Assembly: GCA_052034495.1 (NCBI GenBank)
Contig: JBPOIL010000001.1
Location: 84,293-148,292 of the forward strand
From: Patescibacteria group bacterium
Lineage (GTDB): Bacteria > Patescibacteriota > Saccharimonadia > CAILAD01 > JADZBC01
DNA: 64,000 nt
Reading direction: 5' to 3'
This document shows, piece by piece, positions 1 to 56,945 of the stretch. Below the pieces are notes generated by a model that was not told where the DNA came from, searched no databases, and saw only the letters and a program-made list of their open reading frames with translations. A program made the position numbers and the translations under genes. Position 1 is the stretch's first letter; every line of letters begins with the position of its first letter.

Positions 1-1
1 A

Positions 2-4300: not shown

Positions 4301-4366
4301 CCCCCAAAAATTCGGCATTTCATATAGCGGAGTGTCAAACAGCGAAACAAAGGGCGACTACCCCCC

Positions 4367-5326
4367 CTATGTTACCTCTGTTGGAACGCCTGTATAGAAG
4401 GCAAGTAAGTCTTCTAAATACTCTTTATTATTGGCATAAGCGTAGTCTTTAGACCAACGCACAAGCAGTAAATTACTTTGAATTATCATCTCCTCGTTTG
4501 TTATAGCGTGTCGTTTCTGCTTTTTACCAGACTTTAGTGGGTCTATAAGTTCAATAAGTATTTCTGGCGTAAGAGCAAAATAGTGTCGTCTTTGGGCTAT
4601 ATGGTTACTGTACATCTTCTCAACCATTGTTTTGCCAGTATTGTTGAACACTTCAACCACTGGCGTATCGGTAGTGATAAACTTCTTTGAGCCTTTAGCC
4701 AGATAGAACCACCATTTCTTTATTACAAACCACCTATGAAACTCTTCGCAATTAGTAATGAGCTGTAAGTGATTGACGTTATTATCAAAAGTCAGTTCAT
4801 ATTCGCCACTTACAAATGTTTTCCTTGCGTCTTCAATCTGTTCATCTGTTACTTGATGTCCTTCTTCTTCCATAGCCTTTTTAGCACCATCGGCAAAGTT
4901 TGGGTGCGTAGCCATTAGTGTAGTGATTTGTTTCATACCGTCAGCCATAGTCTTGTTTATTTGTCTTCGCATATGTGGACTTCTAATCCAAAGGGAAGCC
5001 ATAAACCACGCTAGAATATCTAATTGCTGGTCTGTTAGTGGTCGGTAATTTAGTATAGCGTCAACAATGGCGTCATACTCTTTGGCAAACTTATCTTCAA
5101 TTTCGCCAAAAAATTGCTCAAAGACTTGGCTTGTTTCGTCTTCTTTTCCAGTTTCAACAGCGTAATAAAAATCAGCATAACAAACACCGCTATAAGGTCG
5201 GGGCTTTATGAGTTTGCCTTTTTGAATATCTAAAGTCTGTAACATATTATCAACCGCAAACCGCTTGAAGTAAAAACGAGGTGCGAAATGCTGTTTCTTT
5301 GTTATCTGCTTGGTCATAATTTCCAT
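4367..5326 (-). CDS. DUF4238 family protein (defence-island associated, function unknown)
   Basis: N-terminal KKQHFAPRFYFKRF matches the DUF4238 H-x-P-x-F-Y-L-K-x-F signature. Convergent with the R-M operon. Confidence 0.6.
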   Translation of the reverse strand: MEIMTKQITKKQHFAPRFYFKRFAVDNMLQTLDIQKGKLIKPRPYSGVCYADFYYAVETGKEDETSQVFEQFFGEIEDKFAKEYDAIVDAILNYRPLTDQQLDILAWFMASLWIRSPHMRRQINKTMADGMKQITTLMATHPNFADGAKKAMEEEGHQVTDEQIEDARKTFVSGEYELTFDNNVNHLQLITNCEEFHRWFVIKKWWFYLAKGSKKFITTDTPVVEVFNNTGKTMVEKMYSNHIAQRRHYFALTPEILIELIDPLKSGKKQKRHAITNEEMIIQSNLLLVRWSKDYAYANNKEYLEDLLAFYTGVPTEVT

Positions 5327-21337: not shown

Positions 21338-23128
21338 ATGTTGGGTGCAATCCGTAAACTGTTCGAGCTCGTTGGCCTGATCGCCAAGGAGCCTGGAGGA
21401 GACAAGAAGGTACGACAGGTTAAAAAGGATGCCAAGAAGGCACTCTTTTGGCTGGTCGTTACAGAACTGCTGGAGATCGTTCAGATCTATCCGGTGAAGT
21501 ACTTCGTTGATGGAATCGCCCAGGGCAAGAGTCTCGGCTACCTGCTGAGCATTGTCGGTGTGATGCTGGCCATCGACGTGGTTGTGCGCATTGTTGCCAA
21601 CACGATGAACCATACTCGGCATGTTGCTGCGTGGCATCAGTACGTCATGCTGCTTGGCTTCGGTCAGGCAAAGCAAATGAGCATGGACGTGGCGTGGCAC
21701 CTTGAGCACGGCACAGGCGAAAAGGAATCCTTGATCGCCAAGAACCTCAATCGGATCGACAACTTGACGGATCGAGTCATTTACAACGGCTTGCCCGTGG
21801 TGATTCGGATCGTGTTGACGATTGTGGCTTTGTTCATCTTCGGTCCGGTTTTCGCACTGTTTGGTGTGATTGTGGTTGGGCTGTTCGTGGCTGTCATGGC
21901 CTACAACGGTCGCTACATCAAGCCAATCGACAAGGCCGGCCATCATGCCTGGAAGGACATGCATACTCGCGGGACTGAGCTGTCAGCAAAGTCACGTACT
22001 CTGAAGCAATTCGGGGTCGAAGCGAGCTTTGCGCGGCGCTATCAGTCTGTTCTAGACGGCTATGCCGAAGACGACATTGAACGCAACCGTGCTTGGCGCC
22101 GTTATCAGCGTCGTCCCGAATACGTCCTGATGGCTGCTTTCCTTGGCATGTATGCGTTGCTGGCGCTGTTGCACAACGGAACCGGTGGCGCTGTCACTGT
22201 TGGTACAGTGGTGCTGGTGATTGACTGGTTGAGGCGAATCTTCATCAACCTTTACCAGTTCCGAGATGTGCAGCGAGCCATTTCGGATGGCAGCGAGGCG
22301 CTCAATGAGTACATCGGGCTTTTCAAGACCGTTCCGAGCATTCGACAGCCCGCTACTCCCCAGAAGCCCACTGCGGCAGAGGGGAGGATTGAGCTGCGCT
22401 GCATGGGCTTTACGCATGCTGGTAATTGCGTGCCGACTCTTAAGGAGTTGGATTTGGTCATTGAGCCAAATACCACTATTGCGCTGGTTGGTCCCTCTGG
22501 GGCTGGCAAGTCAACGGTGGCCGCACTGCTGGCACGTGAGGCTGATCCGACCGAAGGGGAGATTCTCTTTGACGGCATTAGCTTGCGGCAGTTTGACTAC
22601 GACTACCTGCGCCAGCAGATGGTTACGGTCGTGTCGCAAGACGTGCAGCTGATCGATGGCAGCATCGCTGACAACATTCGCATGGGCAATGCCCTGGCAA
22701 GTGACGAAGCGGTGCACCAGGCTGCGCAGCGCGCTCATGCAGATGAGTTCATTGCCAGGCTGCCACACGGCTATGCCAGCCAGGTGGGCGAGAATGGCGT
22801 GCGGCTGTCAGGCGGACAGAGGCAGCGCGTGGCGATTGCCCGGGCTCTTCTGCGCAACCCCAAACTGTTGATCCTGGACGAGGCTACGAGCGCGCTCGAT
22901 GCACGCTCGCAAGACTTCGTGAAGGCGACGGTGGACGAGATGATTCAGTCTCGTCAGGCCACCATTGTGGTCATTGCTCACCGCTTGAGCACCGTGGAGT
23001 CGGCCGACGTGGTCTACTACATGGAAGACGGCCGTATTGTTGAGCATGGCGCTCACGCAGAGCTTTTGGCTCAAGGTGGCCGTTACGCCGAGATGGTGGC
23101 GCGTGAGATTGGAGAGCATTTGGACTGA
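21338..23128 (+). CDS. ABC transporter, fused permease/ATP-binding exporter
   Basis: Walker A GPSGAGKST, ABC signature LSGGQRQRVAIARAL, Walker B LLILDEATSALD, N-terminal TM domain. GC clearly above the window average. Confidence 0.85.
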   Translation: MLGAIRKLFELVGLIAKEPGGDKKVRQVKKDAKKALFWLVVTELLEIVQIYPVKYFVDGIAQGKSLGYLLSIVGVMLAIDVVVRIVANTMNHTRHVAAWHQYVMLLGFGQAKQMSMDVAWHLEHGTGEKESLIAKNLNRIDNLTDRVIYNGLPVVIRIVLTIVALFIFGPVFALFGVIVVGLFVAVMAYNGRYIKPIDKAGHHAWKDMHTRGTELSAKSRTLKQFGVEASFARRYQSVLDGYAEDDIERNRAWRRYQRRPEYVLMAAFLGMYALLALLHNGTGGAVTVGTVVLVIDWLRRIFINLYQFRDVQRAISDGSEALNEYIGLFKTVPSIRQPATPQKPTAAEGRIELRCMGFTHAGNCVPTLKELDLVIEPNTTIALVGPSGAGKSTVAALLAREADPTEGEILFDGISLRQFDYDYLRQQMVTVVSQDVQLIDGSIADNIRMGNALASDEAVHQAAQRAHADEFIARLPHGYASQVGENGVRLSGGQRQRVAIARALLRNPKLLILDEATSALDARSQDFVKATVDEMIQSRQATIVVIAHRLSTVESADVVYYMEDGRIVEHGAHAELLAQGGRYAEMVAREIGEHLD

Positions 23129-23317
23129 CATAGAAAGGAGGGTGACGGCGGGACGCGGGTGAATAACCTTGCGCCCCGCCTATCCCAAGTTGATAAGCCG
23201 AGAGGGGCTCTGACGTACTTTATAACGACATAGTAAAGAATTCAGAGTCCCTTCCGGCAGAGCAACAAGGCTCTCCGGCCCGCACGTTGGCGGGTTAGTT
23301 CGAAAGGGCGTACGTGT

Positions 23318-23863
23318 ATGTACGGACCAGTTATTGAAGGGGCAAAGTGCAAGCTTCGGCCTCATGTTGAGAAGGATGCCCATCTGTTCGTGCAGATGTT
23401 GGCCGACCCGGAGGTGAACAGGTACCTCTCGATGCAGTCGCCACCGAGCATCAGGTCTGAGCTGGAGTGGATCGAGGCACGCGCCAAGGATCCGCGGACC
23501 CTCGGCTGGACTATCGAGGTCGAGGGCAAGTGCGTCGGCTACGTTGGCGTAGACGCCATTAATTGGCGCAATGGCCACGGAACGGTTGGCATCTTCATCG
23601 GCCGCTCAGACCTGTGGGGCAAGGGCATCACGACCGAGGTTGCCCAGCTGGTGGCGCGCTATGTGTTCACCCAGACACCTCTGCGCAAGATCAAGGCCGG
23701 CTACCTGGCCCCCAATGTGGCGTCAGCCAAGGCCCAGGCTCGGATTGGCCTACGTGAGGTTGGCCGTTGGCACGCCGAGTATTTCCGCGATGGCCAGTGG
23801 GTCGACCATGTGTTGACCGAGCTGACCCGCGAGGAGTGGGTGGCAGCCCAGCTGAGTCGGTAG
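23318..23863 (+). CDS. GNAT family N-acetyltransferase (RimJ/RimL-like)
   Basis: GWTIEVEGKCVGYVGVDAINWRNGHGTVGIFIG...GKGITTEV. GC-rich. Confidence 0.65.
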   Translation: MYGPVIEGAKCKLRPHVEKDAHLFVQMLADPEVNRYLSMQSPPSIRSELEWIEARAKDPRTLGWTIEVEGKCVGYVGVDAINWRNGHGTVGIFIGRSDLWGKGITTEVAQLVARYVFTQTPLRKIKAGYLAPNVASAKAQARIGLREVGRWHAEYFRDGQWVDHVLTELTREEWVAAQLSR

Positions 23864-26993: not shown

Positions 26994-27022
26994 TTTGAGC
27001 CCTCCTTAAGATACTTAAGCGT

Positions 27023-27052
27023 ATTATAGCGAACAGCTTACGAACTTGTCAA
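27023..27052 (-). promoter_or_regulatory. sigma70-type promoter of lexA (TTGACA-18 nt-TATAAT) whose spacer carries a GTTCG-N6-GTTCG direct repeat
   Basis: Minus-strand read: ttgacaAGTTCGTAAGCTGTTCGCtataat, then AAGGAGGG RBS before the lexA ATG. Confidence 0.55.
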
Positions 27053-27068
27053 CACCATTTGTGTAAAC

Positions 27069-27096
27069 AAAAACACCCCTCTTTTGAGGGGTGTTT
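27069..27096 (-). terminator. rho-independent terminator (aacacccctc-tttt-gaggggtgtt) for the minus-strand 69-aa gene
   Basis: Perfect 10-bp stem. On the minus strand it is followed by TTTTTGTTT. Confidence 0.7.
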
Positions 27097-27111
27097 AGCC
27101 TAGAAAAGGTT

Positions 27112-27321
27112 CTAGTTTTCTTCTGGAACGTTTAGGCCCATGTAAGTTGCTTCTGAAACAAACTTAGTTAGGTTCGTGCCGTTGTTGTTCGCACGGATCG
27201 CGTAACGTACTTGAGTAGCACCACTTTTGGTTGTTCGCTCGTACTTTTTACGCTTAATCTGACTCTCGTCAATTTGTACCTTCTCTCGAAGTTTGACATC
27301 GTAAAATTCAATTGTTGCCAT
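27112..27321 (-). CDS. small basic hypothetical protein (69 aa), possibly nucleic-acid binding
   Basis: Strong RBS AAGGAG. Followed by a terminator. No family recognised. Confidence 0.55.
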   Translation of the reverse strand: MATIEFYDVKLREKVQIDESQIKRKKYERTTKSGATQVRYAIRANNNGTNLTKFVSEATYMGLNVPEEN

Positions 27322-27576
27322 TTGTAGATTCTCCTTAAATTGATGATAAGGCTAGCTTCGCATGACGTAGCCTCACCTGCAAGCGTAAGCGATTACAAAA
27401 AAAAGTGCAAACTTTGTAGGCAGCTACAGCCCGCTGGGACAATAAAATCATTGCAGTTACAGGGATAATCTGTTATACTTGGCTCACACATTAATTAGTT
27501 CTACACAGTCCTCGTTTTCGTAAGCTCTCTTTGGTCCTTACAAGCGTTCGCTGGTAGGGTTCAAAAGGAGTATATT

Positions 27577-27834
27577 ATGAAAAAATTATTTGTTGGTAGC
27601 TTGCCATGGTCAGTAAATGACCAGCAACTAGGTGAAATCTTTGCCGAAGTTGGAACAGTTGAGTCTGCAAACGTAGTACTAGACAAGATGACTGGCCGTT
27701 CACGCGGTTTCGGTTTTGTCGAAATGAGTAGCGTTGAAGAAGCTCAAAAGGCTGTAGAAGTGCTTAACGGCAAAGAAGTTGACGGTCGTACGATCATCGT
27801 TTCTGAAGCTAAGCCTCAGGTAGACCGCCGCTAA
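27577..27834 (+). CDS. RRM-type RNA-binding protein
   Basis: RNP-2 LFVGSL and RNP-1 RGFGFVEM motifs. 85 aa. Confidence 0.85.
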   Translation: MKKLFVGSLPWSVNDQQLGEIFAEVGTVESANVVLDKMTGRSRGFGFVEMSSVEEAQKAVEVLNGKEVDGRTIIVSEAKPQVDRR

Positions 27835-27847
27835 GTAGCGACACTAC

Positions 27848-27878
27848 AACAAAAAACCGCTGATTCGTCAGCGGTTTT
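27848..27878 (+). terminator. rho-independent terminator (aaccgctga-ttcg-tcagcggtt-TTTTTG)
   Basis: Perfect 9-bp stem plus T-run right after the RRM gene. Confidence 0.75.
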
Positions 27879-27938
27879 TTGTTTGCTTGCAAACAGCAGC
27901 GTAAGGGGGTTTAATGAAGAGGAATAGGGAGGGAGAGT

Positions 27939-29096
27939 ATGAAGAAGTTAATCATTAGCGTTATAGCGGTATCAGTAATAGCATTGGGGTGGGCAGCGAC
28001 AGCTCGGGCGGAGAACGATACCGTTAAGACCTCGAGTGAGGTTATAGCGAGCGACCAGAGCTACACGGGCCTATACACAAAGGTCGCGGACAGAGTTGAG
28101 ATCAACGGCACGGTGAACGGGGACGTTGCCGTCGTGGCGAGCAAGTTCGTCTTGAAGGGCACGGTGAACGGCAATGTATACGTGCTGGCTGAGAACGCAC
28201 GTTTCGAGGGTGTCGTTACAGGTAACATCCACGTACTTGCTTCCGACGTGGAACTCAGCAGCAAAGCTACGTCTGCATATATCTTAGCGTCCCAGCTGAC
28301 GTCAACCAAGACAGCCCAATTGACCGGCTCCCTAGCAGCGGCCGCTTCGGAGGCAGAAGTGAATGGCAGTATCACTCAGTCTGCCTACGTAGGGGCTTCT
28401 GTGGTGCGTTACAACGCGCCCACTGGCGGTTCGGTTAAGCTGGCGGCTAGCCAGATAACAGTTGGCAGCGATGCAACCATAGCTGGGGACTTAAGCTACA
28501 GCCAATCAGCCGAGATAAAGATCAAGAACGATAAGAATATTGAAGGCTCAATAAAACAGTTTGGTCCTCCTGCTAAAGCCGAACAGCCCTCATGGGTGGC
28601 CAAGGCCTCAGGTGCTCTGTATGGCCTCATTGCCAGCTTTATAATCGGTGCTGTCATGCTGTGGCTGGCTCCACGGAGCGTCATAGCAACCGGCGACTAC
28701 GTCCTGCAGAAGCCAGGCCAGTCACTCTTAGCAGGCTTTGGCTTCCTCGTCATGGCACCAATTGCGCTATTGATGATCGCGGTGACCCTTGTTGGCATTC
28801 CGTTGGCGATCATAGGACTCATGGTCTACATCACGGTGCTCATTGTATCCCATATATTTGTAGCCCTTCTTGTTGGCCGACGTGCCCTTGGGACGGCTAA
28901 GAGCAAAAAGGGTAATGGCGCAGGGCAGAACTTGTTGCCATTGCTCCTTGGGCTACTCATAACGGGTGTGCTTGAGCTGCTTCCAGTGCTTGGTGGCTTA
29001 TTCACCTTTGCCATTCTGATAGCTGGCATCGGCGCCCTAGTGAGCCGAAACTGGCTAAGACTACGGCATGTCGCGAGTACTCAGCGCGCAGCCTAA
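27939..29096 (+). CDS. exported beta-helical repeat (bactofilin/DUF4097-like) protein with C-terminal multi-TM anchor
   Basis: Signal peptide. Repeated (V/I)xGx(V/I)xG(N/D) units: VEINGTVNGDVAVV, LKGTVNGNVYVL, FEGVVTGNIHVL. About 4 TM helices at the C-terminus. Confidence 0.55.
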   Translation: MKKLIISVIAVSVIALGWAATARAENDTVKTSSEVIASDQSYTGLYTKVADRVEINGTVNGDVAVVASKFVLKGTVNGNVYVLAENARFEGVVTGNIHVLASDVELSSKATSAYILASQLTSTKTAQLTGSLAAAASEAEVNGSITQSAYVGASVVRYNAPTGGSVKLAASQITVGSDATIAGDLSYSQSAEIKIKNDKNIEGSIKQFGPPAKAEQPSWVAKASGALYGLIASFIIGAVMLWLAPRSVIATGDYVLQKPGQSLLAGFGFLVMAPIALLMIAVTLVGIPLAIIGLMVYITVLIVSHIFVALLVGRRALGTAKSKKGNGAGQNLLPLLLGLLITGVLELLPVLGGLFTFAILIAGIGALVSRNWLRLRHVASTQRAA

Positions 29097-29171
29097 CCTG
29101 TCCCAACCTATTGACAAAGCATTACCAGTTTCGTAACCTGTTAAACATAAGACTAATATAAGGAGAGATTA

Positions 29172-29369
29172 ATGCCATATACACACACTAACTCGAAGGG
29201 ACAGGCCTACATCCTTCACCGACAAGAAGTTACCCTAAAGGGTGGCCGCCAGCAAACTATTTATTACTTCGCTAAAGAAGCTAAGCCAACTGCTATTGAC
29301 GAGCTTCCAGAAGGCTACATTGTAATCGAGAACACTCGAACTGGTTTGCCGATCCTCAAGAAGGGCTAA
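29172..29369 (+). CDS. small hypothetical protein (65 aa)
   Basis: Strong RBS TAAGGAGAG. Followed by a hairpin terminator. Confidence 0.55.
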   Translation: MPYTHTNSKGQAYILHRQEVTLKGGRQQTIYYFAKEAKPTAIDELPEGYIVIENTRTGLPILKKG

Positions 29370-29389
29370 TCTAGCCCCAAGACCATATG

Positions 29390-29411
29390 AGCCCCTTCGG
29401 GGGCTTTTTGG
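29390..29411 (+). terminator. rho-independent terminator (agcccc-ttcg-ggggct-TTTTGG)
   Basis: Perfect stem plus T-run. Confidence 0.65.
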
Positions 29412-29470
29412 TTGCGACTTTATTTATAGGTGTAAATCCGCTATATTTAGCTAGTCCTTACACGCTCTAA

Positions 29471-29546
29471 GGGCCCGTAGCTCAGTGGTTAGAGCAGTCG
29501 GCTCATAACCGATTGGTCGCTGGTTCAAATCCAGCCGGGCCCACCA
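29471..29546 (+). tRNA. tRNA with CAT anticodon; sequence closely resembles E. coli tRNA-Ile2 (lysidine; ileX) rather than tRNA-Met
   Basis: GGGCCCGTAGCTCAGTGGTTAGAGCAGTCGGCTCATAACCGATTGGTCGCTGGTTCAAATCCAGCCGGGCCCACCA. Cloverleaf with anticodon loop CTCATAA. Encoded CCA. Confidence 0.85.
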
Positions 29547-29590
29547 AGCATAAGCATTATAGATGAAGACTCCGAAAGGGGTCTTTTGTT
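29538..29590 (+). repeat. repeat A: tRNA 3' end (ggcccacca) plus 44 bp downstream including GNRA-loop terminator hairpin; duplicated at 30573-30625
   Basis: 53-bp direct repeat, about 90% identical to the copy at 30573..30625. Confidence 0.7.
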
Positions 29591-29927
29591 GTTATGTTTG
29601 AAATTGTGCAGGATTCAACTTATCATCAGGGTTGATGGTAGCGCCCTGCTGCCCGTACCGATGGAGGACACGATGGCTACCGACGCGAGTGGTTACGACC
29701 ACCTGAACGAAGACACCCCAATAGTGCTCGAGCTTGGAGGAGTGCGGGTGTCGTTGGTAGGGAAAGACCACATGGCCAAGTTGGTCTCAGCCGTTCTTCG
29801 TTCGAACTACGGGATGAACCGCTTCCTTGCAGAGCTCCTTTCCCAGCTCCCTTCCAGAGAGCACCTTTCGCCTGAGGAGCTGAAGCTTCTGGAGGACATA
29901 CGGGCCTACTTCTCAGCCCGGGGCTGA
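29586..29927 (+). CDS. hypothetical protein in GC-elevated cassette (likely start ATG 29661, MEDTMATD...)
   Basis: ORF of about 88-113 aa, roughly 58% GC, followed by a hairpin plus T-run at about 29975-30008. Confidence 0.4.
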   Translation: MLLCLKLCRIQLIIRVDGSALLPVPMEDTMATDASGYDHLNEDTPIVLELGGVRVSLVGKDHMAKLVSAVLRSNYGMNRFLAELLSQLPSREHLSPEELKLLEDIRAYFSARG

Positions 29928-30093
29928 TGCGCTACAGCGCAGATGATGGGGTGAGGCAACAGGGCCCACCCCAGAGCGACTTAGAATCATCTAGGTCGCT
30001 TTTTCGTTATTGACTCTTTATCGGGACAGGTATAGAATTTCACCAACACCTACCAACCGGTTCGTGTTAAGGCCAAATACAAGGGGGAAATCC

Positions 30094-30426
30094 GTGGCCA
30101 TCTTCCCGAGCATGACGCTCAAGTCGGTCAACCGTGTTCGTGTCGCACGTGGCGCCCCGCCGCTCAAGAAGCTGCGGAAGGGCGACCGTCGCAACCAGCA
30201 CATCTGTGCCATCGCCAACTCGCTCAGCGACGTGGCTCCCGGCATCAAGGTGCACAAGCGCCGCATCTCCGGGGTGGACCAGGAGTTCGCGGAGCTCATC
30301 GCCCGCGAGTTCGGCACCCACCTCGACCCGAGCAAGGAGACGCCCCAGGTGGTGATGCCGCTGCACATGCAGGGCTTCGTGTTCGCCTACGACCGAGGCG
30401 CCTACGACGAGCTCGCTCGCACCTGA
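30094..30426 (+). CDS. hypothetical protein, very GC-rich (~65% GC) cassette gene; start uncertain (GTG 30094 after AAGGGGG, ATG 30112, or TTG 30010)
   Basis: Strong GC3 bias picks this frame over the five overlapping ORFs. Translation ...MTLKSVNRVRVARGAPPLKKLRKGDRRNQHICAIANSLSDVAPGIKVHKRRISGVDQEFAELIAREFGTHLD... Confidence 0.45.
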   Translation: MAIFPSMTLKSVNRVRVARGAPPLKKLRKGDRRNQHICAIANSLSDVAPGIKVHKRRISGVDQEFAELIAREFGTHLDPSKETPQVVMPLHMQGFVFAYDRGAYDELART

Positions 30427-30430
30427 CCCA

Positions 30431-30524
30431 TCCATGTCCTGCGCGCATAGCAATACTGCGCAGCGTCTGCCAGACGATACCTGGCATCACCCAAGTTCAT
30501 GAATGTGATTCGTGAGTTTAGGTG
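30431..30524 (+). repeat. repeat C: structured ~95-bp element (stems ctgcgc/gcgcag, cgtctg/cagacg, tgccag/ctggca; ttcatgaa palindrome) directly after the cassette stop
   Basis: Homologous to repeat D at 31166-31288, with compensatory stem changes. Confidence 0.6.
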
Positions 30525-30572
30525 AGATTACCTCCGCTAGAGCTTGCAGATGGTTACAAGTGAGTCCAGTAA

Positions 30573-30625
30573 GGCCCACCAAGCATAAGAATTATAGATA
30601 AAGAATCCGCAAGGGGTCTTTTGTT
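30573..30625 (+). repeat. repeat B: second copy of the tRNA(CAT) 3' end plus downstream 44 bp (att-like remnant)
   Basis: ggcccaccaagcataagaattatagataaagaatccgcaaggggtcttttgtt compared with 29538-29590. Confidence 0.7.
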
Positions 30626-30648
30626 ATGCTTGATATCATTATCACGAA

Positions 30649-31155
30649 GTGTCATTATATGCCCACGAAGCAAACAATAGCTTCACGACCATAGGGGGTT
30701 CGTTGAAAACGCAGTCCTTGCAGTTCCACTTCGTTGGAAACCACTTGCTCGATGGCGGAGAGTACATCCTCTTCCTCATCCCAATCGTTGCCCTGCTGAC
30801 CGGAGTCGGTCTCCTCGTCGACGACAGAAAGAAGCATGCCGACAAGGTGCTCGTGTGCGCCCTCGTCTTCTTCTTCGGTCTCTTCATAGCGATGCACAAC
30901 AGCGGCGCTCACTACGACGTTCAGTACGTCAAGGGAGAGCTGGAGTCACAGGGGCTAAACGTTGTGAGGAGCAACGTCACAGGGGATGACAAGAACGACA
31001 ACACGGTCACCTTCGGCAACGGCGGGTGTGAGCTCGGTGACTTCAAGTTCTACTACGAGAAGGGCACCGTGCGTGCCTACGTCCGCCGAGGTGAGTACGA
31101 TGTGCTCATCACCCCGCAGCTCCTCGAGCGCATGTGCGCGTCTACCGGCGGCTGA
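30649..31155 (+). CDS. hypothetical membrane protein, very GC-rich cassette gene (2 TM segments plus soluble C-terminal domain); N-terminus/start uncertain
   Basis: GC3 about 85% in this frame from about 30740 on. TM segments ILFLIPIVALLTGVGLLV and VLVCALVFFFGLFIAM. The leader resembles that of the 30094 gene. Confidence 0.45.
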   Translation: MSLYAHEANNSFTTIGGSLKTQSLQFHFVGNHLLDGGEYILFLIPIVALLTGVGLLVDDRKKHADKVLVCALVFFFGLFIAMHNSGAHYDVQYVKGELESQGLNVVRSNVTGDDKNDNTVTFGNGGCELGDFKFYYEKGTVRAYVRRGEYDVLITPQLLERMCASTGG

Positions 31156-31165
31156 CCGCGTCGCC

Positions 31166-31288
31166 AACCATGTCCTGCACGCATCGCAATACTGTGCAGC
31201 GTTCGCCAGAACGATACTCTGGCGGGTGGGAGCTTCCGAGCTCCTGCCGTCACCCAAGTTCATGAATAGGATTCGTGAGTTTAGGTGA
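31166..31288 (+). repeat. repeat D: second copy of the structured element (stems ctgcac/gtgcag, cgttc/gaacg, gccag/ctggc; extra ggagct-tccg-agctcc hairpin)
   Basis: Shares ccatgtcctgc(g/a)cgcat(a/c)gcaatactg(c/t)gcagcg... and tcacccaagttcatgaat..gattcgtgagtttaggtga with repeat C. Confidence 0.6.
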
Positions 31289-31324
31289 AGCCGTCGTATC
31301 TTCTTGTGTGGTAGCATATAGTCT

Positions 31325-31765
31325 ATGAATCAACATCTGTCAGACGAAGAGTATCAAGCGGTCTATTCAAAAGTTCCTAGGCTGAATGTCGAGTTGGTTA
31401 TTATGGAGCGAGGAAAAGTTCTCCTCTCGAAGAGAGTAATAGAGCCTTGGCAGGGGCATTGGCACTTGCCAGGTGGCCGTGTCCTGATGAATGAAACCCT
31501 GGAAGAGGCAGTGGCCAGGATAGGAAGACTAGAACTTGGGCTTGAGGTAAAAGCAGTAGACGTCCTCGGCTCAATCACATATCCGAGCATAAAAGGCCAG
31601 CCCAAGGATTTTGAGTGGCCTATAGGAGTTGTTTATAGCGCGGATGTTTTGAAAGGAGAGATAAAAGGCTGGGAGTTAGCCCCTAGAGTCGAGTGGTTTA
31701 GCGAGCTGCCCAGACCAATAATTGAAGAGCAAAAGACTTTCCTCCTCGACAGAGCCTTGTTTTAG
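31325..31765 (+). CDS. NUDIX hydrolase
   Basis: GHWHLPGGRVLMNETLEEAVARIGRLELGL Nudix box. Confidence 0.7.
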   Translation: MNQHLSDEEYQAVYSKVPRLNVELVIMERGKVLLSKRVIEPWQGHWHLPGGRVLMNETLEEAVARIGRLELGLEVKAVDVLGSITYPSIKGQPKDFEWPIGVVYSADVLKGEIKGWELAPRVEWFSELPRPIIEEQKTFLLDRALF

Positions 31766-31834
31766 TATCCTAGGCGAGACTACTGCCGACCTTCTATAGC
31801 CCATTGCATATAAAATCATAAAAGCTAGCATAGT

Positions 31835-32248
31835 GTGATGCGCAGGAGTATTACACAGAAAAGAGAATATGGCTGTGGTGTGGCCTGCTTTGCGTTTGCT
31901 ACCAATATGGGCTACCACGAAGCCGAGAACCATCTTGGCAAGGACATCGTAGAGAGGCATGAGTTTAGAGGCGTCATCATGAACAGGCTGCTAAATGAAT
32001 ACGGCCTGGAATATCGAAAGAGGTACACAGGGGCGGGCTGGAGGCCAAAGAAATACCCTAATGGCACAATCGCCTACATTTACGCGAGCGCTACGCACCC
32101 TCACGGGCATTACTTGATTCGACACAATGGTGCATGGATGGATCCATGGATCAATATGAGGGATGATCGTAGAATTCGGTTTGCTAGATCGGGCTACAGA
32201 CCAAAACTACCAGGTAAGCCTATGTTTTTGCTGCTACCAATTACTTGA
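31835..32248 (+). CDS. papain-like cysteine peptidase, C39-like domain protein
   Basis: GCGVACFAFATNMGY (Cys nucleophile motif as in the C39 CGxAxL motif). Downstream HYLIRHNG His. Confidence 0.5.
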   Translation: MMRRSITQKREYGCGVACFAFATNMGYHEAENHLGKDIVERHEFRGVIMNRLLNEYGLEYRKRYTGAGWRPKKYPNGTIAYIYASATHPHGHYLIRHNGAWMDPWINMRDDRRIRFARSGYRPKLPGKPMFLLLPIT

Positions 32249-32283
32249 ACTAGTGTGCGCTTAGTGGTACGATAAAACACTTT

Positions 32284-33063
32284 ATGAAGATTATTACGTT
32301 AAACATTTGGGGCGGGCGAGTGCTTGAGCCACTCTTGGAATTCTTTAAGACTAAGGCCCAAGAAGCTGACGTTATTTGCTTGCAAGAAGTCTTTGCTTCG
32401 GGCTTGGAGCTAGAGGACGTTGATGTTTGTACAAACATGCTGGATAGACTGCTGCCGATAATGCAGGACTATAGATTCGTTTACAATTCCAATGTGGTGG
32501 ACAGGCTGACTTCGCAGATCGAGGGCAGCGATTTACGTTATGGCAACGCTATTTTTGTGCGTAAATCTCTCAGGCTACGCGGTAGTCAGAATCAGTTTAT
32601 CGTAAAATACCCCGGTGACGTTTATGATCTGGAAGCAGGTGATGATCATCCGCGAGCCCTGCAAATCGTGCAGCTTTCCGATGAGTACGGGAATAACTTT
32701 TCTGTAGCGAACTACCATGGCTATTGGAGTAACGGTCCCAAGACTGACGACGAAGTGCGCCTTGAGCAGTCAGTGCGTATTCGTGAAGTGCTTGATGGGC
32801 TGAATGAGCCATTTGTACTTTGTGGCGACTTTAACTTGCTACCAACCACCAAAAGCCTAGATATCCTACGGGATGGCCTAAGCGACATGGTTCAAAAGTA
32901 CAAGTTATCAACTACTCGGTCGCCCTTATATAAGCGCATAGACTATGCGCCGTTTGCCGACTACATGTTTACTACCCCAGAGGTGCGCGACAAGAGCTTC
33001 CGAGCCCTGGACGACGTAGTTTCTGACCACTTGGCGTTAGAGCTCGACTTCGACCTGGTATAA
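32284..33063 (+). CDS. endonuclease/exonuclease/phosphatase (EEP) family protein
   Basis: N-terminal MKIITLNIWGG. C-terminal SDHLALELDFD. Confidence 0.7.
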   Translation: MKIITLNIWGGRVLEPLLEFFKTKAQEADVICLQEVFASGLELEDVDVCTNMLDRLLPIMQDYRFVYNSNVVDRLTSQIEGSDLRYGNAIFVRKSLRLRGSQNQFIVKYPGDVYDLEAGDDHPRALQIVQLSDEYGNNFSVANYHGYWSNGPKTDDEVRLEQSVRIREVLDGLNEPFVLCGDFNLLPTTKSLDILRDGLSDMVQKYKLSTTRSPLYKRIDYAPFADYMFTTPEVRDKSFRALDDVVSDHLALELDFDLV

Positions 33064-33089
33064 TGGAATAGATAAGTGGAGCTAAGGAA

Positions 33090-33908
33090 ATGACGATGCC
33101 AATTGATTTAGTGCTCGTTCGGCACGGACAGTCAGAGCAAAACCTAGCATCACACTTTGCCAAGAATGGCGACCCTAGCCTGTATACCGAGGAGTTCAGG
33201 AAGCGTCACGGCGGACAGCACAGGCTTACGGCCAAAGGCCGAAGTCAGGCAGAAGCAGCAGGTAAATGGCTGCGAAAAAATGATTTAGCGTACTTTGATC
33301 GTCGCTACGTTTCGGCCTACGTGCGCGCTATGGAGACTGCAGGCCTACTGAGCCTTGACGGCCCTGACTGGATGGTAGACCCATTGCTGCGTGAGCGAGA
33401 GTGGGGGGATTTTGATAACATTCCCCATGATGAGCGCGTGGCAAAATCTGAAGAATCAATGGAGATGCGAGACACCGATCCGTTCTTTTGGATACCGCCG
33501 AACGGCGAATCAGTTGCTCAACTAACAGTTCGACTTCGTTCGGTTCTAGATACTCTGCATAGGGAGTGCACGGATCGCAGGGTCGTGATTGTGTGTCACG
33601 GCGAGGTCATGTCGGCCTTCCGGTTCCTACTGGAGCGAATGAGTATCGACAGATGGGCGCAGTTGCAAAAGTCCAAGGAACCAGGCGAGAAGATATTCAA
33701 CTGCCAAGTGTTCCATTACACTCGTCGCAATCCAGATTCGAGTGAACTTTCTCCTCACCTGGATTGGATGCGCTCGATCAGTCCCGCCGACGAGTCAAAC
33801 AGCGGTGACGGCTGGCAGAAAATTACGCGCAAGCGATTCTCTAATAACGAACTACTGGAAGCTGCCGACCAGGTGGGTCATTTATTCCCAGAGCGGGAAG
33901 GCTATTAG
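33090..33908 (+). CDS. histidine phosphatase family protein (phosphoglycerate mutase-like)
   Basis: LVRHGQSEQN RHG motif. Second His in CHGEVM. Confidence 0.7.
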   Translation: MTMPIDLVLVRHGQSEQNLASHFAKNGDPSLYTEEFRKRHGGQHRLTAKGRSQAEAAGKWLRKNDLAYFDRRYVSAYVRAMETAGLLSLDGPDWMVDPLLREREWGDFDNIPHDERVAKSEESMEMRDTDPFFWIPPNGESVAQLTVRLRSVLDTLHRECTDRRVVIVCHGEVMSAFRFLLERMSIDRWAQLQKSKEPGEKIFNCQVFHYTRRNPDSSELSPHLDWMRSISPADESNSGDGWQKITRKRFSNNELLEAADQVGHLFPEREGY

Positions 33909-33909
33909 T

Positions 33910-34335
33910 ATGACGCACTGGTTACTCGTAAGCTCACCAGATAACTTTGAGACGTCTCGCGCTCGTGGGTTCGACATAGCTGGCATGAAGACGCGCTGGC
34001 GCAAGGCGGCCGGGGAAGTTCAAGTAGGAGACACAGTATTCTTTTACCTTACGGGGCTCAAGTCGATCGGTGGGGAAGCAGTCGTAACAGGGCCTGCCTA
34101 CGAAGACTTTGAGAAGATTTGGGAGTCCACTAAGCCCGACGAAGTCTATCCGCACCGCTTTCCAATCAAAATTTCCAAAGCCAGACCCAAAGGGGACTAC
34201 TTAAAAGTAGAAGACTTTTTAGACCAATACGAATACGCCAGGCGCTGGCCAGTTAAGAACTGGACATTGGCGTTCCAGGGTAATGCCCACAGGCTGAACG
34301 AAGCTGACTACCAGCTGATTCACGATCTAATCTAG
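33910..34335 (+). CDS. EVE (PUA-like) domain protein
   Basis: MTHWLLVSSPDNFE... GDTVFFYLTG pattern typical of EVE domains. The ORF-track start at 33742 overlaps the previous gene; ATG at 33910 is preferred. Confidence 0.55.
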   Translation: MTHWLLVSSPDNFETSRARGFDIAGMKTRWRKAAGEVQVGDTVFFYLTGLKSIGGEAVVTGPAYEDFEKIWESTKPDEVYPHRFPIKISKARPKGDYLKVEDFLDQYEYARRWPVKNWTLAFQGNAHRLNEADYQLIHDLI

Positions 34336-36159: not shown

Positions 36160-36236
<77 letters not shown>

Positions 36237-36444: not shown

Positions 36445-37773
36445 ATGATTGAGCGACTAAACCAACACTTGAGTAAGAGTGGATTGCTTCCGCAGGGCAG
36501 CAGCATTGTTGTGGCTGTTTCGGGCGGTGTAGATTCGGTAGCTCTGCTCGATATGCTGATGGAATTAAAGGAAGAGTATGGCTGGGATATTGCAATTGCA
36601 CACCTGGATCATAAGGTTCGACCAAGTTCGGCCGATGACGCGCAAATGGTTGCCGATATGGCTCGCAAGTACGATGCGAAATACTACCTAGGGCAATTGG
36701 GTGGTGACGAAACACGCGAAGCAGGCCTGCGCCGAGCACGCTATGACTTTCTGGAGGCTATTCGTAGTGGCCACCAGGCCAACTGGATAGTTACGGCCCA
36801 CCATCGTGACGACCGGATAGAAACATCCATCTTTAACACGATTCGTGGTGCCGACCGCTACGGCATGACGGCAATGCGCCCCGTGCGGGGTAGAATCGTT
36901 CGACCACTTTTGCCCTTCCGTAAAGGAGACTTGATAGCCTACGCTCACGCAAAGGGACTGCCCTTTGTGGAGGACGAGACGAACTCCGACCAGTCGTATA
37001 GTCGCAACTTTGTTCGCCATTCGTTGCTACCACTTGCGTCGCAGTACGATACGAACTTCCATGATGATTACCTTAAAAGGCTTGATAAGATGGAAGAGCT
37101 GAATGTGTCGATCGAGCACGGACTGGAGCAGATTATTACCTATCTGGATCGCGGCAGTAAAGGTGATAAGTTGAAGCTCGACCGAGTTGGGTTTGCAAAA
37201 CTTTCGCCAGTTATTCAATTAAACTTGCTTGTCCACATTGCTCGGCAGCTGTGCCCCGGCATTGGTCTATCCGAAGTGAACTTAGGCGAGGCACAGCGCT
37301 ACTTACTCAACGCCAAGACTGGTACGCACAAGACTATCGGCGGCATGCTCGAGCTTCGAAGAGACTACGATGTACTCGTGCTGCTGCCAGTTCAAACAGC
37401 TGTAGATTCAGACCAGGCCAGTAGGGTTGTACCTCTTAGCCTGGGTGGTGCCATAGAGTTTGGGCGCTACTTGCTTGCGCTAAATAGCCCAAGTGGGTCT
37501 GAGGTGTTTGATTCTGCATGGCTGAAACCAGGTAGTTACTACGTGCGGAAGTGGTGCAAAGGTGATAGAATATACCCTGCTGGGATTCAGGGGTCTAAGA
37601 AAATGAGCGATCTTTTCATAGACAAGAAGGTCCCGCAATCAGACAGGCTGGATTGGCCAATTATTGTGAATACCCAAAATGAGATTGTGTGGGTGCCGGG
37701 CCTCGGTATCGGTAGGAAGTTTGTGGGCACACCCGAATCTAATGATTATTATGTAACTTGTGAGGTGATATGA
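36445..37773 (+). CDS. tilS: tRNA(Ile)-lysidine synthetase
   Basis: PP-loop VAVSGGVDSVAL. 442 aa. Conserved tilS-ftsH linkage. Confidence 0.85.
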   Translation: MIERLNQHLSKSGLLPQGSSIVVAVSGGVDSVALLDMLMELKEEYGWDIAIAHLDHKVRPSSADDAQMVADMARKYDAKYYLGQLGGDETREAGLRRARYDFLEAIRSGHQANWIVTAHHRDDRIETSIFNTIRGADRYGMTAMRPVRGRIVRPLLPFRKGDLIAYAHAKGLPFVEDETNSDQSYSRNFVRHSLLPLASQYDTNFHDDYLKRLDKMEELNVSIEHGLEQIITYLDRGSKGDKLKLDRVGFAKLSPVIQLNLLVHIARQLCPGIGLSEVNLGEAQRYLLNAKTGTHKTIGGMLELRRDYDVLVLLPVQTAVDSDQASRVVPLSLGGAIEFGRYLLALNSPSGSEVFDSAWLKPGSYYVRKWCKGDRIYPAGIQGSKKMSDLFIDKKVPQSDRLDWPIIVNTQNEIVWVPGLGIGRKFVGTPESNDYYVTCEVI

Positions 37774-53375: not shown

Positions 53376-54830
53376 ATGCATAGGTCGACACAAATACTGA
53401 TTGCTGCTATCGGCTTGATGTGCGGCATTGTGTTCGCGCGATACTACGGTTCGGCTTGGAGTTGGCAAATGCTTGGCTGGGCAGTGCTGGCGCTTGCGGC
53501 AGCTGTCGTTATCCGCAGGAGTAGCCTCGCATATGTCCTAATCTGCTTGCTTGCGTTTGCCATAGGCATGTTGCGTCAAGACATATTTATCGCGCAGCAG
53601 CCCGCCAGGACGATTGATAGTTTGCAGTATAGCAAACACATAGTAGTCGGCACCGTAGCTAGCGAGCCCTTTCGCGACGACAAGACAAACTATGTATCTT
53701 ACTTTAAGGATTTGGTAGTCGATGGAGAGCCTGTCGCAGGCGATCTTCGAGTTAAGTCGCTCGTGGCAAGTGCCAAAGAAGGCTATCGGGTCGAAGTGCA
53801 GGGCAAAGTATTGCCCAGCTTGGGCAAAGCTAGCAGTTCTGTCAGTTATGCAAAAGTATCAATACTTTCAACCCGGCAAAGCATCCTTGTCCAAGCAAAG
53901 AGCGAGTTTAGTAAGGGAGTTAGAAGAGCATTACCCGAGCCTGTCGGGAGCTTTATGCTCGGTATCCTAATAGGTGCCCGCTCGACATTACCGAAGGAGC
54001 TACAAGACACGATGGCACTCATTGGTCTGTCCCATCTCATCGCCGTATCGGGTTATAACTTAACGATAATAACCCTGGCTATTCAGGGCTTGGCCGGCAA
54101 GAAGTGGCAGTGGGCAAGCCTGGTTGGTACATTGTGGCTAATCGTTGGTTTCGTGGTCTTAACTGGTGCATCAGCGTCGATCGTACGGGCGGGGATTATG
54201 TCCACACTCTTCTTGCTCGCATCGTATTACGGCCGTAAGCTTGAGGTTCTAACGTGCTTGGCCTTGGGCATCATCATTACCCTCATGTGGAGCCCAGCAT
54301 ATATTTCCGACCTAAGCTGGCAGCTATCATTCTTGGCGCTTGGAGGTATCGTCCTGCTCACCCCAGTTGTACGGGCATTGATACCGCAACGGTTCGGGGC
54401 TGCAGGGGAGATAGCTGCAGTTTCTGTCGCCGCACAAATCGCCACTATGCCGCTCGTTGCCTATGTATTTGGTAGCATATCTGTCGTGGCGCCATTAGCA
54501 AATGTGATCTTCCTGCCCTTCGTGCCAATACTGATGCTACTCGGGCTCTTAGCCGGCCTAATTGGCATGCTCGCCCCAGGCGTTGCGTTCGCGGCTGCAT
54601 GGCCAATTGGGGGTGTTGTGAATGCGATGCTGGATTGCATGAGGTATCTGGCCGGCTTGCCGGGCGCCGCAATCAATGGCACTACGCCCTCGGAGTTTGC
54701 CGTACTGGCGTTCTACGCTCTACTCGTCACACTGGGTCTGCTAGCGCATCGTCGTGGCTTGGGCTCGTCGGTGGCTAATGCTATAATTACAGGTAGAAAA
54801 GAAGGAACTACAGATGAGCGGACACAGTAA
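53376..54830 (+). CDS. comEC: ComEC/Rec2-family DNA-uptake channel (competence domain only; no metallo-beta-lactamase domain)
   Basis: Multi-TM. LIGLSHLIAVSGYNLTII competence-domain motif. 484 aa. Confidence 0.7.
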   Translation: MHRSTQILIAAIGLMCGIVFARYYGSAWSWQMLGWAVLALAAAVVIRRSSLAYVLICLLAFAIGMLRQDIFIAQQPARTIDSLQYSKHIVVGTVASEPFRDDKTNYVSYFKDLVVDGEPVAGDLRVKSLVASAKEGYRVEVQGKVLPSLGKASSSVSYAKVSILSTRQSILVQAKSEFSKGVRRALPEPVGSFMLGILIGARSTLPKELQDTMALIGLSHLIAVSGYNLTIITLAIQGLAGKKWQWASLVGTLWLIVGFVVLTGASASIVRAGIMSTLFLLASYYGRKLEVLTCLALGIIITLMWSPAYISDLSWQLSFLALGGIVLLTPVVRALIPQRFGAAGEIAAVSVAAQIATMPLVAYVFGSISVVAPLANVIFLPFVPILMLLGLLAGLIGMLAPGVAFAAAWPIGGVVNAMLDCMRYLAGLPGAAINGTTPSEFAVLAFYALLVTLGLLAHRRGLGSSVANAIITGRKEGTTDERTQ

Positions 54831-56937: not shown

Positions 56938-56945
56938 TCGGTATA

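What the first reader, a model, noticed from the sequence alone, without database searches (positions are those of the whole stretch)
29471..31320. tRNA(CAT)-anchored tandem array of cassette-like modules: duplicated tRNA 3' end, GC-rich cargo ORFs and structured terminal repeats
The 3' 9 nt of the tRNA-Ile2-like gene plus 44 bp downstream (repeat A, 29538-29590) recur about 1 kb away as repeat B (30573-30625, about 90% identity). This is the classic footprint of site-specific integration into a tRNA 3' end, yet no integrase is present and the segments are only about 1.1 kb and 0.7 kb. Each segment carries an ORF of foreign composition and ends in a homologous ~100-bp structured repeat (C at 30431-30524, D at 31166-31288). 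The two cargo ORFs (30094 and 30649) also share a similar low-GC leader (..TTATA..CAA.A.A..TTCAC.A.C..AGGGGG..), so whole modules appear to have been duplicated or serially captured. The architecture (promoter-poor ORF plus structured recombination-site-like repeat, arrayed at one attachment site) resembles an integron-like or otherwise undescribed capture system more than a conventional genomic island.
Basis: seen in the sequence. Interest (0 to 1): 0.85.

Follow-up and report, generated by a model that had tools for sequence, protein, structure and literature searches.

The report
Integrase-less gene cassettes stacked at a tRNA
Downstream of a tRNA gene in a tiny-genome (Saccharimonadia/CPR) bacterium sits a strain-variable stack of very small, self-contained foreign gene cassettes, each bounded by a copy of the tRNA's 3' end, which looks like repeated site-specific integration by a recombinase that is encoded somewhere else.

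Summary
tRNA(CAT) 29471-29546 is followed by three modules, not two. Each begins with a copy of the tRNA 3' end (GGCCCACC at 29538, 29962 and 30573), then a terminator hairpin, its own sigma-70-like promoter, a Shine-Dalgarno sequence and one ORF of foreign composition (GC3 0.69-0.90 against 0.50-0.56 for native genes). Repeats A/B (61 nt, 89%) and C/D are confirmed and occur nowhere else in the window.

Related Saccharimonadia contigs carry different cassettes at the same tRNA, and other relatives have an empty site. Module 2 is shared with a lineage whose flanking genes are saturated at synonymous sites (module dS 0.24), so that cassette moved horizontally.

No integrase was found in the 64-kb window. 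There are no attC sites, and the cassettes are not promoterless, so this is not an integron.

The best reading is tandem accretion of minimal, integrase-less integrative cassettes at a tRNA attB site, serviced in trans. The nearest known cases are CIMEs and the remnant arrays in tycheposon islands. C/D is the conserved, hairpin-rich 3' arm of one cassette subfamily.

It is a new variant of a known kind, of moderate interest. The recombinase and any excision remain unshown.

The parts
29471..29546 (+). tRNA(CAT), the attachment-site gene. It is probably tRNA-Ile2 (lysidine type).
   Evidence: ARAGORN and Rfam RF00005 at 76.7 bits. The two other CAT tRNAs, at 36160 and 36302, look like initiator and elongator Met, and tilS is at 36445-37773. 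The Ile2 identity is inferred by elimination.
29538..29590 (+). Repeat A: the core GGCCCACCA (end of the tRNA) plus the type-1 left arm of module 1, including a terminator hairpin at 29565-29586.
   Evidence: The same roughly 55-nt arm heads module 3 and also the methyltransferase and MOSC cassettes of L002.
29598..29626 (+). Promoter-like site of module 1 (TTGAAA, 17 nt, TATCAT).
29673..29927 (+). ORF1 (84 aa), cargo of module 1. No family match. GC3 0.69.
   Evidence: It is called as a gene on contig L006.
29942..29970 (+). Junction between modules 1 and 2. It holds a degenerate partial tRNA 3' end (..CAACAGGGCCCACC), with the core at 29962-29970.
   Evidence: The block shared with L002 starts at 29942. 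The same junction is present in L029 in front of a different gene.
29973..30002 (+). Terminator hairpin of the type-2 left arm of module 2.
   Evidence: Conserved in L002 and L029.
30010..30038 (+). Promoter-like site of module 2 (TTGACT, 17 nt, TAGAAT).
30094..30426 (+). ORF2 (110 aa from GTG, or 104 aa from ATG 30112), cargo of module 2. It belongs to a small uncharacterised family of roughly 110-aa proteins that also occurs in phage-like contigs.
   Evidence: GC3 0.90. dN/dS 0.42 against L002. 29 remote relatives. Conserved motifs. Three of 30 members hit phrog_19191. Genomic contexts are L151 and L152.
30428..30527 (+). Repeat C: three consecutive hairpins that form the conserved 3' arm of module 2.
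   Evidence: Folding z-score -2.7.
30551..30581 (+). Pseudo T-arm plus core (TGGTTACAAGTGAGTCCAGTAAGGCCCACCA). This is the right end of module 2 and the junction with module 3.
   Evidence: Local alignment to the tRNA 3' half scores 26, against a null 95th percentile of 18. The block shared with L002 ends at 30582.
30565..30625 (+). Repeat B: the core plus the type-1 left arm of module 3, with a weakened terminator hairpin at about 30600-30621.
30630..30658 (+). Promoter-like site of module 3 (TTGATA, 17 nt, CATTAT, with TG extension).
30703..31155 (+). ORF3 (150 aa from TTG 30703, or 168 aa if read from GTG 30649), cargo of module 3. It has two predicted transmembrane helices and a C-terminal beta-rich domain. 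No homologue was found other than itself.
31164..31290 (+). Repeat D: the same 3' arm as C, with one extra hairpin. No pseudo T-arm or core follows it.
   Evidence: Folding z-score -4.6.
31325..32248 (+). NUDIX gene (31325-31765) and a 137-aa ORF (31835-32248). Both are further variable genes of the same hotspot. Their composition is native-like and no att copies could be recognised.
   Evidence: Pfam NUDIX. Absent from every other locus in hand. Conserved synteny with L002 resumes at 32267.

Best explanation
The locus is an accretion array. Minimal integrative cassettes of 0.4-1.5 kb were inserted one after another by site-specific recombination into the 3' end of the tRNA(CAT) gene.

Each cassette is laid out as follows:
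- a copy of the tRNA 3' end (core GGCCCACC[A]);
- a terminator that closes the upstream transcript;
- a promoter and Shine-Dalgarno sequence;
- one cargo gene;
- a 3' arm that ends in a T-arm-like sequence.

The next core follows directly. Integration regenerates an intact tRNA, so the tRNA-proximal site can be used again and older cassettes are pushed distally.

The cassettes encode no recombinase. The enzyme, most likely a tyrosine integrase of a phage or other element that uses the same attB, acts in trans. C/D is the conserved hairpin-rich 3' arm of one cassette subfamily (modules 2 and 3). It is either an arm of the attachment site or a 3'-UTR structure.

Shown here: the anatomy, the variability between lineages, the horizontal movement of module 2 and the absence of an integrase in 64 kb. 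Inferred: the recombination chemistry, the trans-acting enzyme and the order of insertion.
For: Repeat anatomy in the window:
- There are three cores, each followed by a terminator and a promoter at the same relative position.

Other lineages have the same layout with other cargo:
- L002/L003: tRNA | methyltransferase | core | MOSC | core | module 2 | core | conserved Exo_endo_phos.
- L029: two ORFs | type-2 junction | 165-aa ORF.
- L031: a 1052-nt cassette. L032: a 618-nt cassette. Both have GC-rich ORFs.
- More distant relatives have the empty site, tRNA plus terminator only: L045, L047, L048, L055, L060.

Evidence for att-like arms:
- The sequence left of internal cores resembles the tRNA T-arm, as expected for attP core-type sites.
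- Arms are shared between cassettes with unrelated cargo. The type-1 arm is in 4 cassettes. The type-2 arm is in module 2 and in an L029 cassette. A homologous 3' arm of about 170 nt is shared by L031 and L032.

Evidence for horizontal movement of module 2:
- It is 88% identical between the window and L002 over 643 nt, with ORF2 dS 0.24.
- Flanking genes have dS 0.56-1.09 or are saturated.
- The shared block ends exactly at the right-hand core.

Cargo:
- It is compositionally heterogeneous and foreign.
- Relatives of ORF2 lie in phage-like contigs.

Precedent:
- Serial integration at one tRNA, with the elements separated by partial tRNAs, is documented for tycheposon islands (10.1101/2020.12.28.424599).
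- The same holds for accretion of CIMEs with ICEs or IMEs (PMC5704250).
Against: - No recombinase was found. None of about 30 tested window ORFs, and none of the precomputed annotations of neighbouring genes, hits an integrase family. Only 64 kb of the genome could be examined.
- There is no direct evidence of excision, circles or an empty site within the same species. The three Logan assemblies of this species agree with the window.
- The invariant core is only 9 nt. Fuzzy matches to it are no commoner than in shuffled sequence. The case therefore rests on the longer repeats and on their positions.
- Module 3 has no recognisable right-hand core.
- The NUDIX and 137-aa genes have no att copies at all.
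- Compensatory changes keep the C/D hairpins intact. That points to a folded RNA or single strand rather than a classical double-stranded arm site.
Confidence: 0.6

Rival explanations
1. The locus is a recombination hotspot maintained by natural transformation and homologous recombination. The conserved tRNA, the repeated 55-60-nt linkers and the conserved flanking genes act as homology handles. Cassettes are swapped between strains by double crossover, with no dedicated site-specific recombinase. This would resemble the minimal mobile elements of Neisseria (comparison from my own knowledge).
For: - ComEC is encoded in the window at 53376-54830.
- RuvA is also present.
- No integrase was found.
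- The linkers are long enough, at 55-61 nt and 84-93% identity, to serve as short homology.
- The array is framed by conserved genes, the 65-aa gene and tRNA on one side and Exo_endo_phos on the other.
Against: - Homologous exchange moves existing cassettes. It does not explain why each junction carries a partial copy of the tRNA 3' end with a T-arm-like sequence to its left.
- It also does not explain why unrelated lineages (L031, L032) show the same core duplication with different arm sequences.
Confidence: 0.2
2. The locus is a dedicated, integron-like capture platform. The tRNA site and a specific unlinked recombinase form a system whose substrates are the minimal cassettes. C/D-type folded arms would play the role of attC.
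For: - The cassettes are uniform, single-gene units with conserved arms and variable cargo.
- The hairpins in C/D are kept by compensatory changes, and several pairs are G-U on the + strand.
- Cassette content varies at a fixed site.
Against: - There is no IntI-like gene beside the array or anywhere in the window.
- The junctions read GGCCCACC(A), not GTTRRRY.
- C/D occurs in only two cassette types, and the covariance model found no further copy in 38 sources.
- The cassettes carry their own promoters and terminators.
- Minus-strand folds are about as stable as plus-strand folds.
Confidence: 0.1
3. The array consists of decayed remnants of ordinary larger prophages or islands that integrated at this tRNA and were then whittled down by deletion in a streamlined genome. 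On this view nothing here is mobile as a minimal unit any longer.
For: - This is the standard route to CIMEs (PMC5704250).
- Relatives of ORF2 are phage-borne.
- L014 has an ImmA/Peptidase_M78-like ORF abutting the same tRNA. This hints at a larger element at the same site in that genome.
- Module 3 is truncated on its right side.
Against: - Module 2 was exchanged as an intact 0.64-kb unit with both junctions, long after the host lineages split.
- At least eight cassettes in five lineages show the same tidy layout of terminator, promoter, one gene and arm. Independent random deletions would not be expected to produce that.
Confidence: 0.1

Closest known systems
CIMEs (cis-mobilizable elements) and tandem accretion with ICEs or IMEs at tRNA genes in streptococci and Streptomyces (PMC5704250)
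   Same: - The elements are bounded by att repeats and have no integrase or transfer genes.
- They are stacked in tandem at the 3' end of a tRNA gene.
- New arrivals use the regenerated att site.
   Different: - CIMEs are usually several kb long and visibly derived from a decayed ICE or IME.
- Here the units are 0.4-1.5 kb, hold a single gene, and have a stereotyped frame of terminator, promoter and arm.
- No parent element or cognate integrase has been identified.
- The host is a CPR bacterium.
Tycheposon islands of Prochlorococcus (10.1101/2020.12.28.424599)
   Same: - The host genome is streamlined.
- The islands sit next to tRNA genes.
- Successive integrations are separated by partial tRNA copies, and degenerate remnants lie further in.
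- The cargo is of varied origin.
   Different: - Tycheposons are defined by their tyrosine recombinase and replication module. None is present here.
- The units here are far smaller.
- No relationship of sequence was found.
Integron cassette arrays
   Same: - They are a tandem array of mostly single-gene cassettes at one attachment site.
- The cassettes lack a recombinase.
- A structured repeat follows some of the ORFs.
- Content differs between strains.
   Different: - There is no intI next to the site, no attI and no attC.
- The junction is the tRNA 3' end.
- The cassettes bring their own promoter and terminator.
ssrA- or tRNA-specific tandem genomic islands of Dehalococcoides (PMC3146451)
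   Same: - The host has a small genome.
- There are repeated site-specific insertions at one small-RNA gene.
- Direct repeats of its 3' end separate tandem islands.
   Different: - Those islands are larger. From my own knowledge, not checked here, they carry their own integrases.
- For this paper I read only the abstract and title.
Neisseria minimal mobile elements and Acinetobacter pdif modules (from my own knowledge, not checked here)
   Same: They are small gene modules without their own recombinase. They are exchanged at fixed positions, either by homologous recombination or by host Xer recombinases.
   Different: - Minimal mobile elements have no att repeats.
- pdif modules are bounded by XerC/D sites on plasmids. 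By eye, no dif-like site could be recognised in the arms here.

Membership tests
Integron | An IntI-type tyrosine recombinase gene adjacent to the array | tested here: not met
   No integrase family hit in about 30 window ORFs, nor in the precomputed Pfam annotation of neighbouring genes. The genes upstream of the tRNA are a 65-aa ORF, DUF8173/bactofilin, an RRM protein and LexA.
Integron | An attC site (imperfect palindrome with R''/R' boxes, GTTRRRY at the junction) at the end of every cassette | tested here: not met
   The junctions read GGCCCACC(A). C/D follows only ORF2 and ORF3. A covariance model of C/D finds no other copy in 38 sources.
Integron | Promoterless cassettes expressed from a common Pc promoter | tested here: not met
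   Each module has its own sigma-70-like promoter directly after its terminator. This is a consensus match only; transcription was not measured.
Integron | Cassette content varies between strains while the flanks stay fixed | tested here: met
   The window, L002/L003, L029, L031 and L032 carry different cassettes at the same tRNA.
tRNA-targeting integrative element (tyrosine-recombinase genomic island) | Insertion at the 3' end of a tRNA gene, with the tRNA regenerated | tested here: met
   The tRNA is intact at 76.7 bits, and the array starts at its last 9 nt.
tRNA-targeting integrative element (tyrosine-recombinase genomic island) | Direct repeats of the tRNA 3' end on both sides of the element | tested here: met
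   Modules 1 and 2 are bounded on both sides (cores at 29538, 29962 and 30573). T-arm-like extensions are present at 4 of 7 internal junctions. Module 3 has only the left copy.
tRNA-targeting integrative element (tyrosine-recombinase genomic island) | An integrase encoded by the element itself | tested here: not met
   The cassettes hold a single small ORF each, with no family hit.
CIME / accretion array | attL and attR retained, with recombination and transfer genes absent | tested here: met
   As in the rows above.
CIME / accretion array | Derived by decay from an ICE, IME or prophage that has a cognate integrase, and mobilisable in cis by such an element | not testable with these tools
   No parent element was found. 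The viral-contig scans for the arms were negative.
Tycheposon | The tycheposon-type tyrosine recombinase and replication module | tested here: not met
   No recombinase, primase or helicase gene in or beside the array.
   A/B and C/D occur only in this array within the 64 kb. In related contigs they occur only at the same locus.

The most novel reading that the evidence does not exclude
Minimal attP-bearing cassettes (left arm with terminator, promoter, one gene, folded right arm) are themselves the mobile units of a cassette-capture system in Saccharimonadia. An unlinked or phage-borne recombinase inserts and excises them at the tRNA-Ile2 3' end. That would give these reduced-genome epibionts an integron-like way to sample phage-derived and other foreign genes.
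Probability: 0.2. Interest if true: 0.8.

Novelty: new variant of a known kind. Interest (0 to 1): 0.55.

Why it matters
CPR and Saccharibacteria genomes are tiny, and how they gain genes is poorly understood. This locus shows a fixed chromosomal site where ready-to-express single genes of foreign composition, at least one with phage-borne relatives, are stacked and exchanged between lineages without a linked recombinase.

If the cassettes are mobile as minimal units, that would be a compact gene-capture route in an important uncultivated group. The conserved arms would also provide a sequence handle for finding such cargo in metagenomes, and perhaps a docking site for genetic tools.

If they are only remnants, the locus is still a clear example of island formation by serial integration in a streamlined genome.

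Tried and rejected
- **Rfam.** No known RNA family other than tRNA in 27000-34000 at E up to 1.
- **Cargo function.** Pfam, PHROGs, PADLOC and NCBIfam gave nothing for ORF1-3, the 137-aa ORF or the L029 and L031 cassettes.
- **Structure prediction.** AlphaFold models of ORF2 and ORF3 had mean pLDDT 49. They were too poor for fold searches, so none were run.
- **Phage genomes.** tblastn of ORF2 and ORF3 gave no usable hit.
- **Viral contigs, arms.** No C/D and no type-2 arm were found. The one type-1 core hit lies in an AT-rich coding region and is chance.
- **Viral contigs, tRNA 3' 17-mer.** 28 contigs matched. They were mostly phage tRNA genes or coding-sequence coincidences. One (L129) has a 46-nt partial tRNA typical of an att site, but none is related to this lineage.
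- **Viral contigs, 65-aa protein as anchor.** This gave one unrelated phage contig.
- **Integrase search.** It was limited to the window and to short related loci, and found none.
- **Population variants.** Searching exact-protein contigs for cassette-less or rearranged variants found only colinear contigs.
- **dif/Xer-like site in the arms.** Considered by eye and rejected.
- **Shared ORF2/ORF3 leader.** Rejected after alignment.
- **Continuation of the arm beyond D.** The idea that D is followed by a degenerate right arm and core overlapping the NUDIX start was rejected. The alignment score of 19 is below the null 95th percentile of 23.
- **Two weak core-like matches at 14182 and 14593.** They lie inside glmS and are taken as chance.
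Full report
**1. What is in the sequence**

ARAGORN and Rfam place a tRNA with anticodon CAT at 29471-29546. Two more CAT tRNAs lie at 36160 and 36302. The first has an initiator-like 1:72 mismatch and a GGG/CCC anticodon stem. The second looks like an elongator. tilS sits next to them. The tRNA at 29471 is therefore probably tRNA-Ile2, by inference.

The repeat finder confirms repeat A (29530-29590) against repeat B (30565-30625), 61 nt at 89% identity. It also confirms the two blocks of C/D, at 87% and 91%. All of these repeats are unique to this place in the 64 kb.

The finder also reports a third partial copy of the tRNA end, CAACAGGGCCCACC at 29957-29970. The array therefore has three modules:
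- M1, 29547-29961
- M2, 29962-30572
- M3, 30573 to about 31290

**2. Anatomy of a module**

The promoter and terminator scan of 29300-32300 finds three + strand sigma-70-like sites, at 29598, 30010 and 30630. Each lies a few bases after the hairpin that follows a core. A G-rich Shine-Dalgarno sequence and one ORF come next.

Every module thus reads: core GGCCCACC(A), terminator, promoter, Shine-Dalgarno, ORF, 3' arm. The claimed common leader of ORF2 and ORF3 does not survive alignment.

The coding frames are real:
- ORF2 has GC1/2/3 of 0.66/0.43/0.90, and dN/dS of 0.42 against its homologue in L002.
- ORF3 has GC3 0.78.
- ORF1 has GC3 0.69.
- Most neighbouring genes have GC3 0.50-0.56.

**3. 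The C/D repeat**

C folds into three consecutive hairpins. D has the same three plus one extra hairpin, which is the 27-nt insertion. Folding z-scores are -2.7 for C and -4.6 for D.

Reading the sequences directly:
- Between C and D, stem 1 changes G-C to A-U.
- Stem 2 changes U-A to C-G and gains one pair, while keeping the loop ACGATAC.
- The long third stem (TCACC-C-AAGTTCATGAAT / ATTCGTGAGTTT-A-GGTGA) varies only in its loop, including in the L002 copy.

The folds are therefore under selection. Several pairs are G-U on the + strand. However, the minus strand folds about as well overall, so the strand is not settled.

In M2, C is followed by 48 nt that end in a T-arm-like sequence and the next core (TGGTTACAAGTGAGTCCAGTAAGGCCCACCA). 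In M3 nothing comparable follows D. Rfam has no match. A covariance model of C/D finds only the known copies among 38 sources.

**4. Comparison with relatives**

ORF2 has only one close homologue cluster among 5.8 billion clusters, and ORF3 matches only itself. The contigs that carry the ORF2 homologue (L001-L005) are syntenic with the window on both sides. Between the tRNA and the conserved Exo_endo_phos gene they hold a different set:

tRNA, type-1 arm, a 459-aa methyltransferase, core plus type-1 arm, MOSC, core plus type-2 arm, the M2 cassette, core, about 265 nt, Exo_endo_phos.

ORF1, ORF3, the NUDIX gene and the 137-aa ORF are absent there and from every other locus in hand.

Other related MAGs:
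- L029 has two other ORFs, then the type-2 junction and terminator, in front of yet another gene of 165 aa.
- L031 carries a cassette of 1052 nt and L032 one of 618 nt. Both have the same layout, GC-rich ORFs and a second AGGCCCACCA.
- The 3' arms of the L031 and L032 cassettes are homologous to each other over about 170 nt, although the ORFs are unrelated.
- More distant relatives found through the conserved 65-aa gene have only the tRNA and a terminator (L045, L047, L048, L055, L060).

**5. Evidence of mobility**

M2 is 88% identical between the window and L002 over 643 nt. The shared block runs from 20 nt left of the left core to the last base of the right core.

Synonymous divergence:

| Gene | dS |
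|---|---|
| ORF2 | 0.24 |
| RRM gene (flank) | 0.56 |
| 65-aa gene (flank) | 1.09 |
| Exo_endo_phos (flank) | saturated |
| His_Phos (flank) | saturated |

The cassette was therefore shared long after the two lineages separated, and it sits in the same tRNA-linked array in both.

The arms are modular:
- The type-1 left arm, about 55 nt, heads four cassettes with unrelated cargo.
- The type-2 arm heads M2 and the L029 165-aa cassette.
- Left of the internal cores the sequence resembles the tRNA T-arm, with a few extra loop bases, at four of seven junctions.

This is what one expects of the core-type half-site of an attP that pairs with a tRNA attB. That expectation comes from general knowledge of tyrosine integrases.

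**6. What is missing**

No integrase or other recombinase family was detected in about 30 ORFs spread across the window, or in the precomputed annotations of neighbouring genes. The window does encode ComEC and RuvA, so exchange by homologous recombination is possible.

Scans of viral contigs for the arms were negative. The three short-read assemblies of the same species are colinear with the window. They give no sign of excision or alternative junctions.

**7. Cargo**

A full HMMER scan places ORF2 in a small family of roughly 110-aa proteins with conserved motifs. Three of 30 members hit phrog_19191, which has no known function.

Two relatives lie in phage-like contigs made of dozens of small co-directional ORFs with interspersed tRNAs (L151, L152). 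One is a single-gene insert in another genome of about 47% GC (L149).

The other cargo gave no hints. The structure models were too poor to use. Cassette GC ranges from 0.44 (the L002 methyltransferase) to 0.66 (ORF2), so the sources are diverse. An actinobacterial origin could not be tested, because these tools carry no taxonomy for the hits.

**8. Interpretation**

The best-supported reading is serial site-specific integration of minimal, integrase-less cassettes at the tRNA 3' end.

This process is documented for larger elements:
- accretion of CIMEs with ICEs or IMEs (PMC5704250);
- tycheposon islands, where new arrivals push older elements inward and leave partial tRNAs behind (10.1101/2020.12.28.424599).

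The locus fails the defining tests for an integron. It has no intI and no attC, and its cassettes carry their own promoters.

What is unusual:
- the very small, uniform, self-contained cassettes;
- the sharing of arms between unrelated cargo;
- the evidence that such a 0.64-kb unit moved between lineages;
- the host group.

Whether the minimal cassettes are still mobile, and which enzyme acts on them, remains open.

Noticed in passing
L002 7229-7603 (also L003 388-762 and L029 about 2303-2680, minus strand): In the L002 and L029 lineages an 88-aa GIY-YIG gene is inserted immediately 5' of the same tRNA. The first 13 nt of the tRNA (GGGCCCGTAGCTC) are duplicated upstream of the insert. Three short perfect hairpins precede the ORF, and the ORF's stop codon lies inside the tRNA. 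The tRNA is therefore a hotspot on both sides.
   Followed up: partly
L020 1395-1617 (minus strand): In a Peregrinibacteria MAG the homologous tRNA(CAT) is split between positions 33 and 34 by a group I intron (Rfam RF00028, 63.2 bits).
   Followed up: yes
L014 1681-2487: A 268-aa ORF with a Peptidase_M78/ImmA-like domain runs convergently into the 3' end of the same tRNA in a related Saccharimonadia MAG. It may be the edge of a larger integrated element, possibly one with an integrase. The held locus ends before this can be seen.
   Followed up: partly
window 21338-23863: The ABC transporter and acetyltransferase genes have raised GC (0.56-0.62) and GC3 (0.67-0.77) compared with their neighbours. 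This may be another acquired segment.
   Followed up: no
window 1-5326: A low-GC segment (0.41-0.43) encodes a DNA methylase, a ResIII helicase/restriction subunit (type III restriction-modification-like) and a DUF4238 protein.
   Followed up: no
window 29172-29369: The 65-aa protein just upstream of the tRNA belongs to a very widespread family, with more than 519 confirmed metagenome stretches. In several lineages it is followed directly by a tRNA (Met-CAT or Phe-GAA). One relative lies on a phage contig, L155.
   Followed up: partly
L149 10001-10366: A member of the ORF2 family sits as a lone gene with raised GC (0.55 against 0.47), with a TATAAT-like box upstream that was read by eye, between the ribosomal protein L31 gene and a fatty-acid desaturase gene. 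It is not next to a tRNA.
   Followed up: no
window 53376-54830 and 56792-57502: ComEC and RuvA are encoded in the window. This bears on the homologous-recombination rival.
   Followed up: partly
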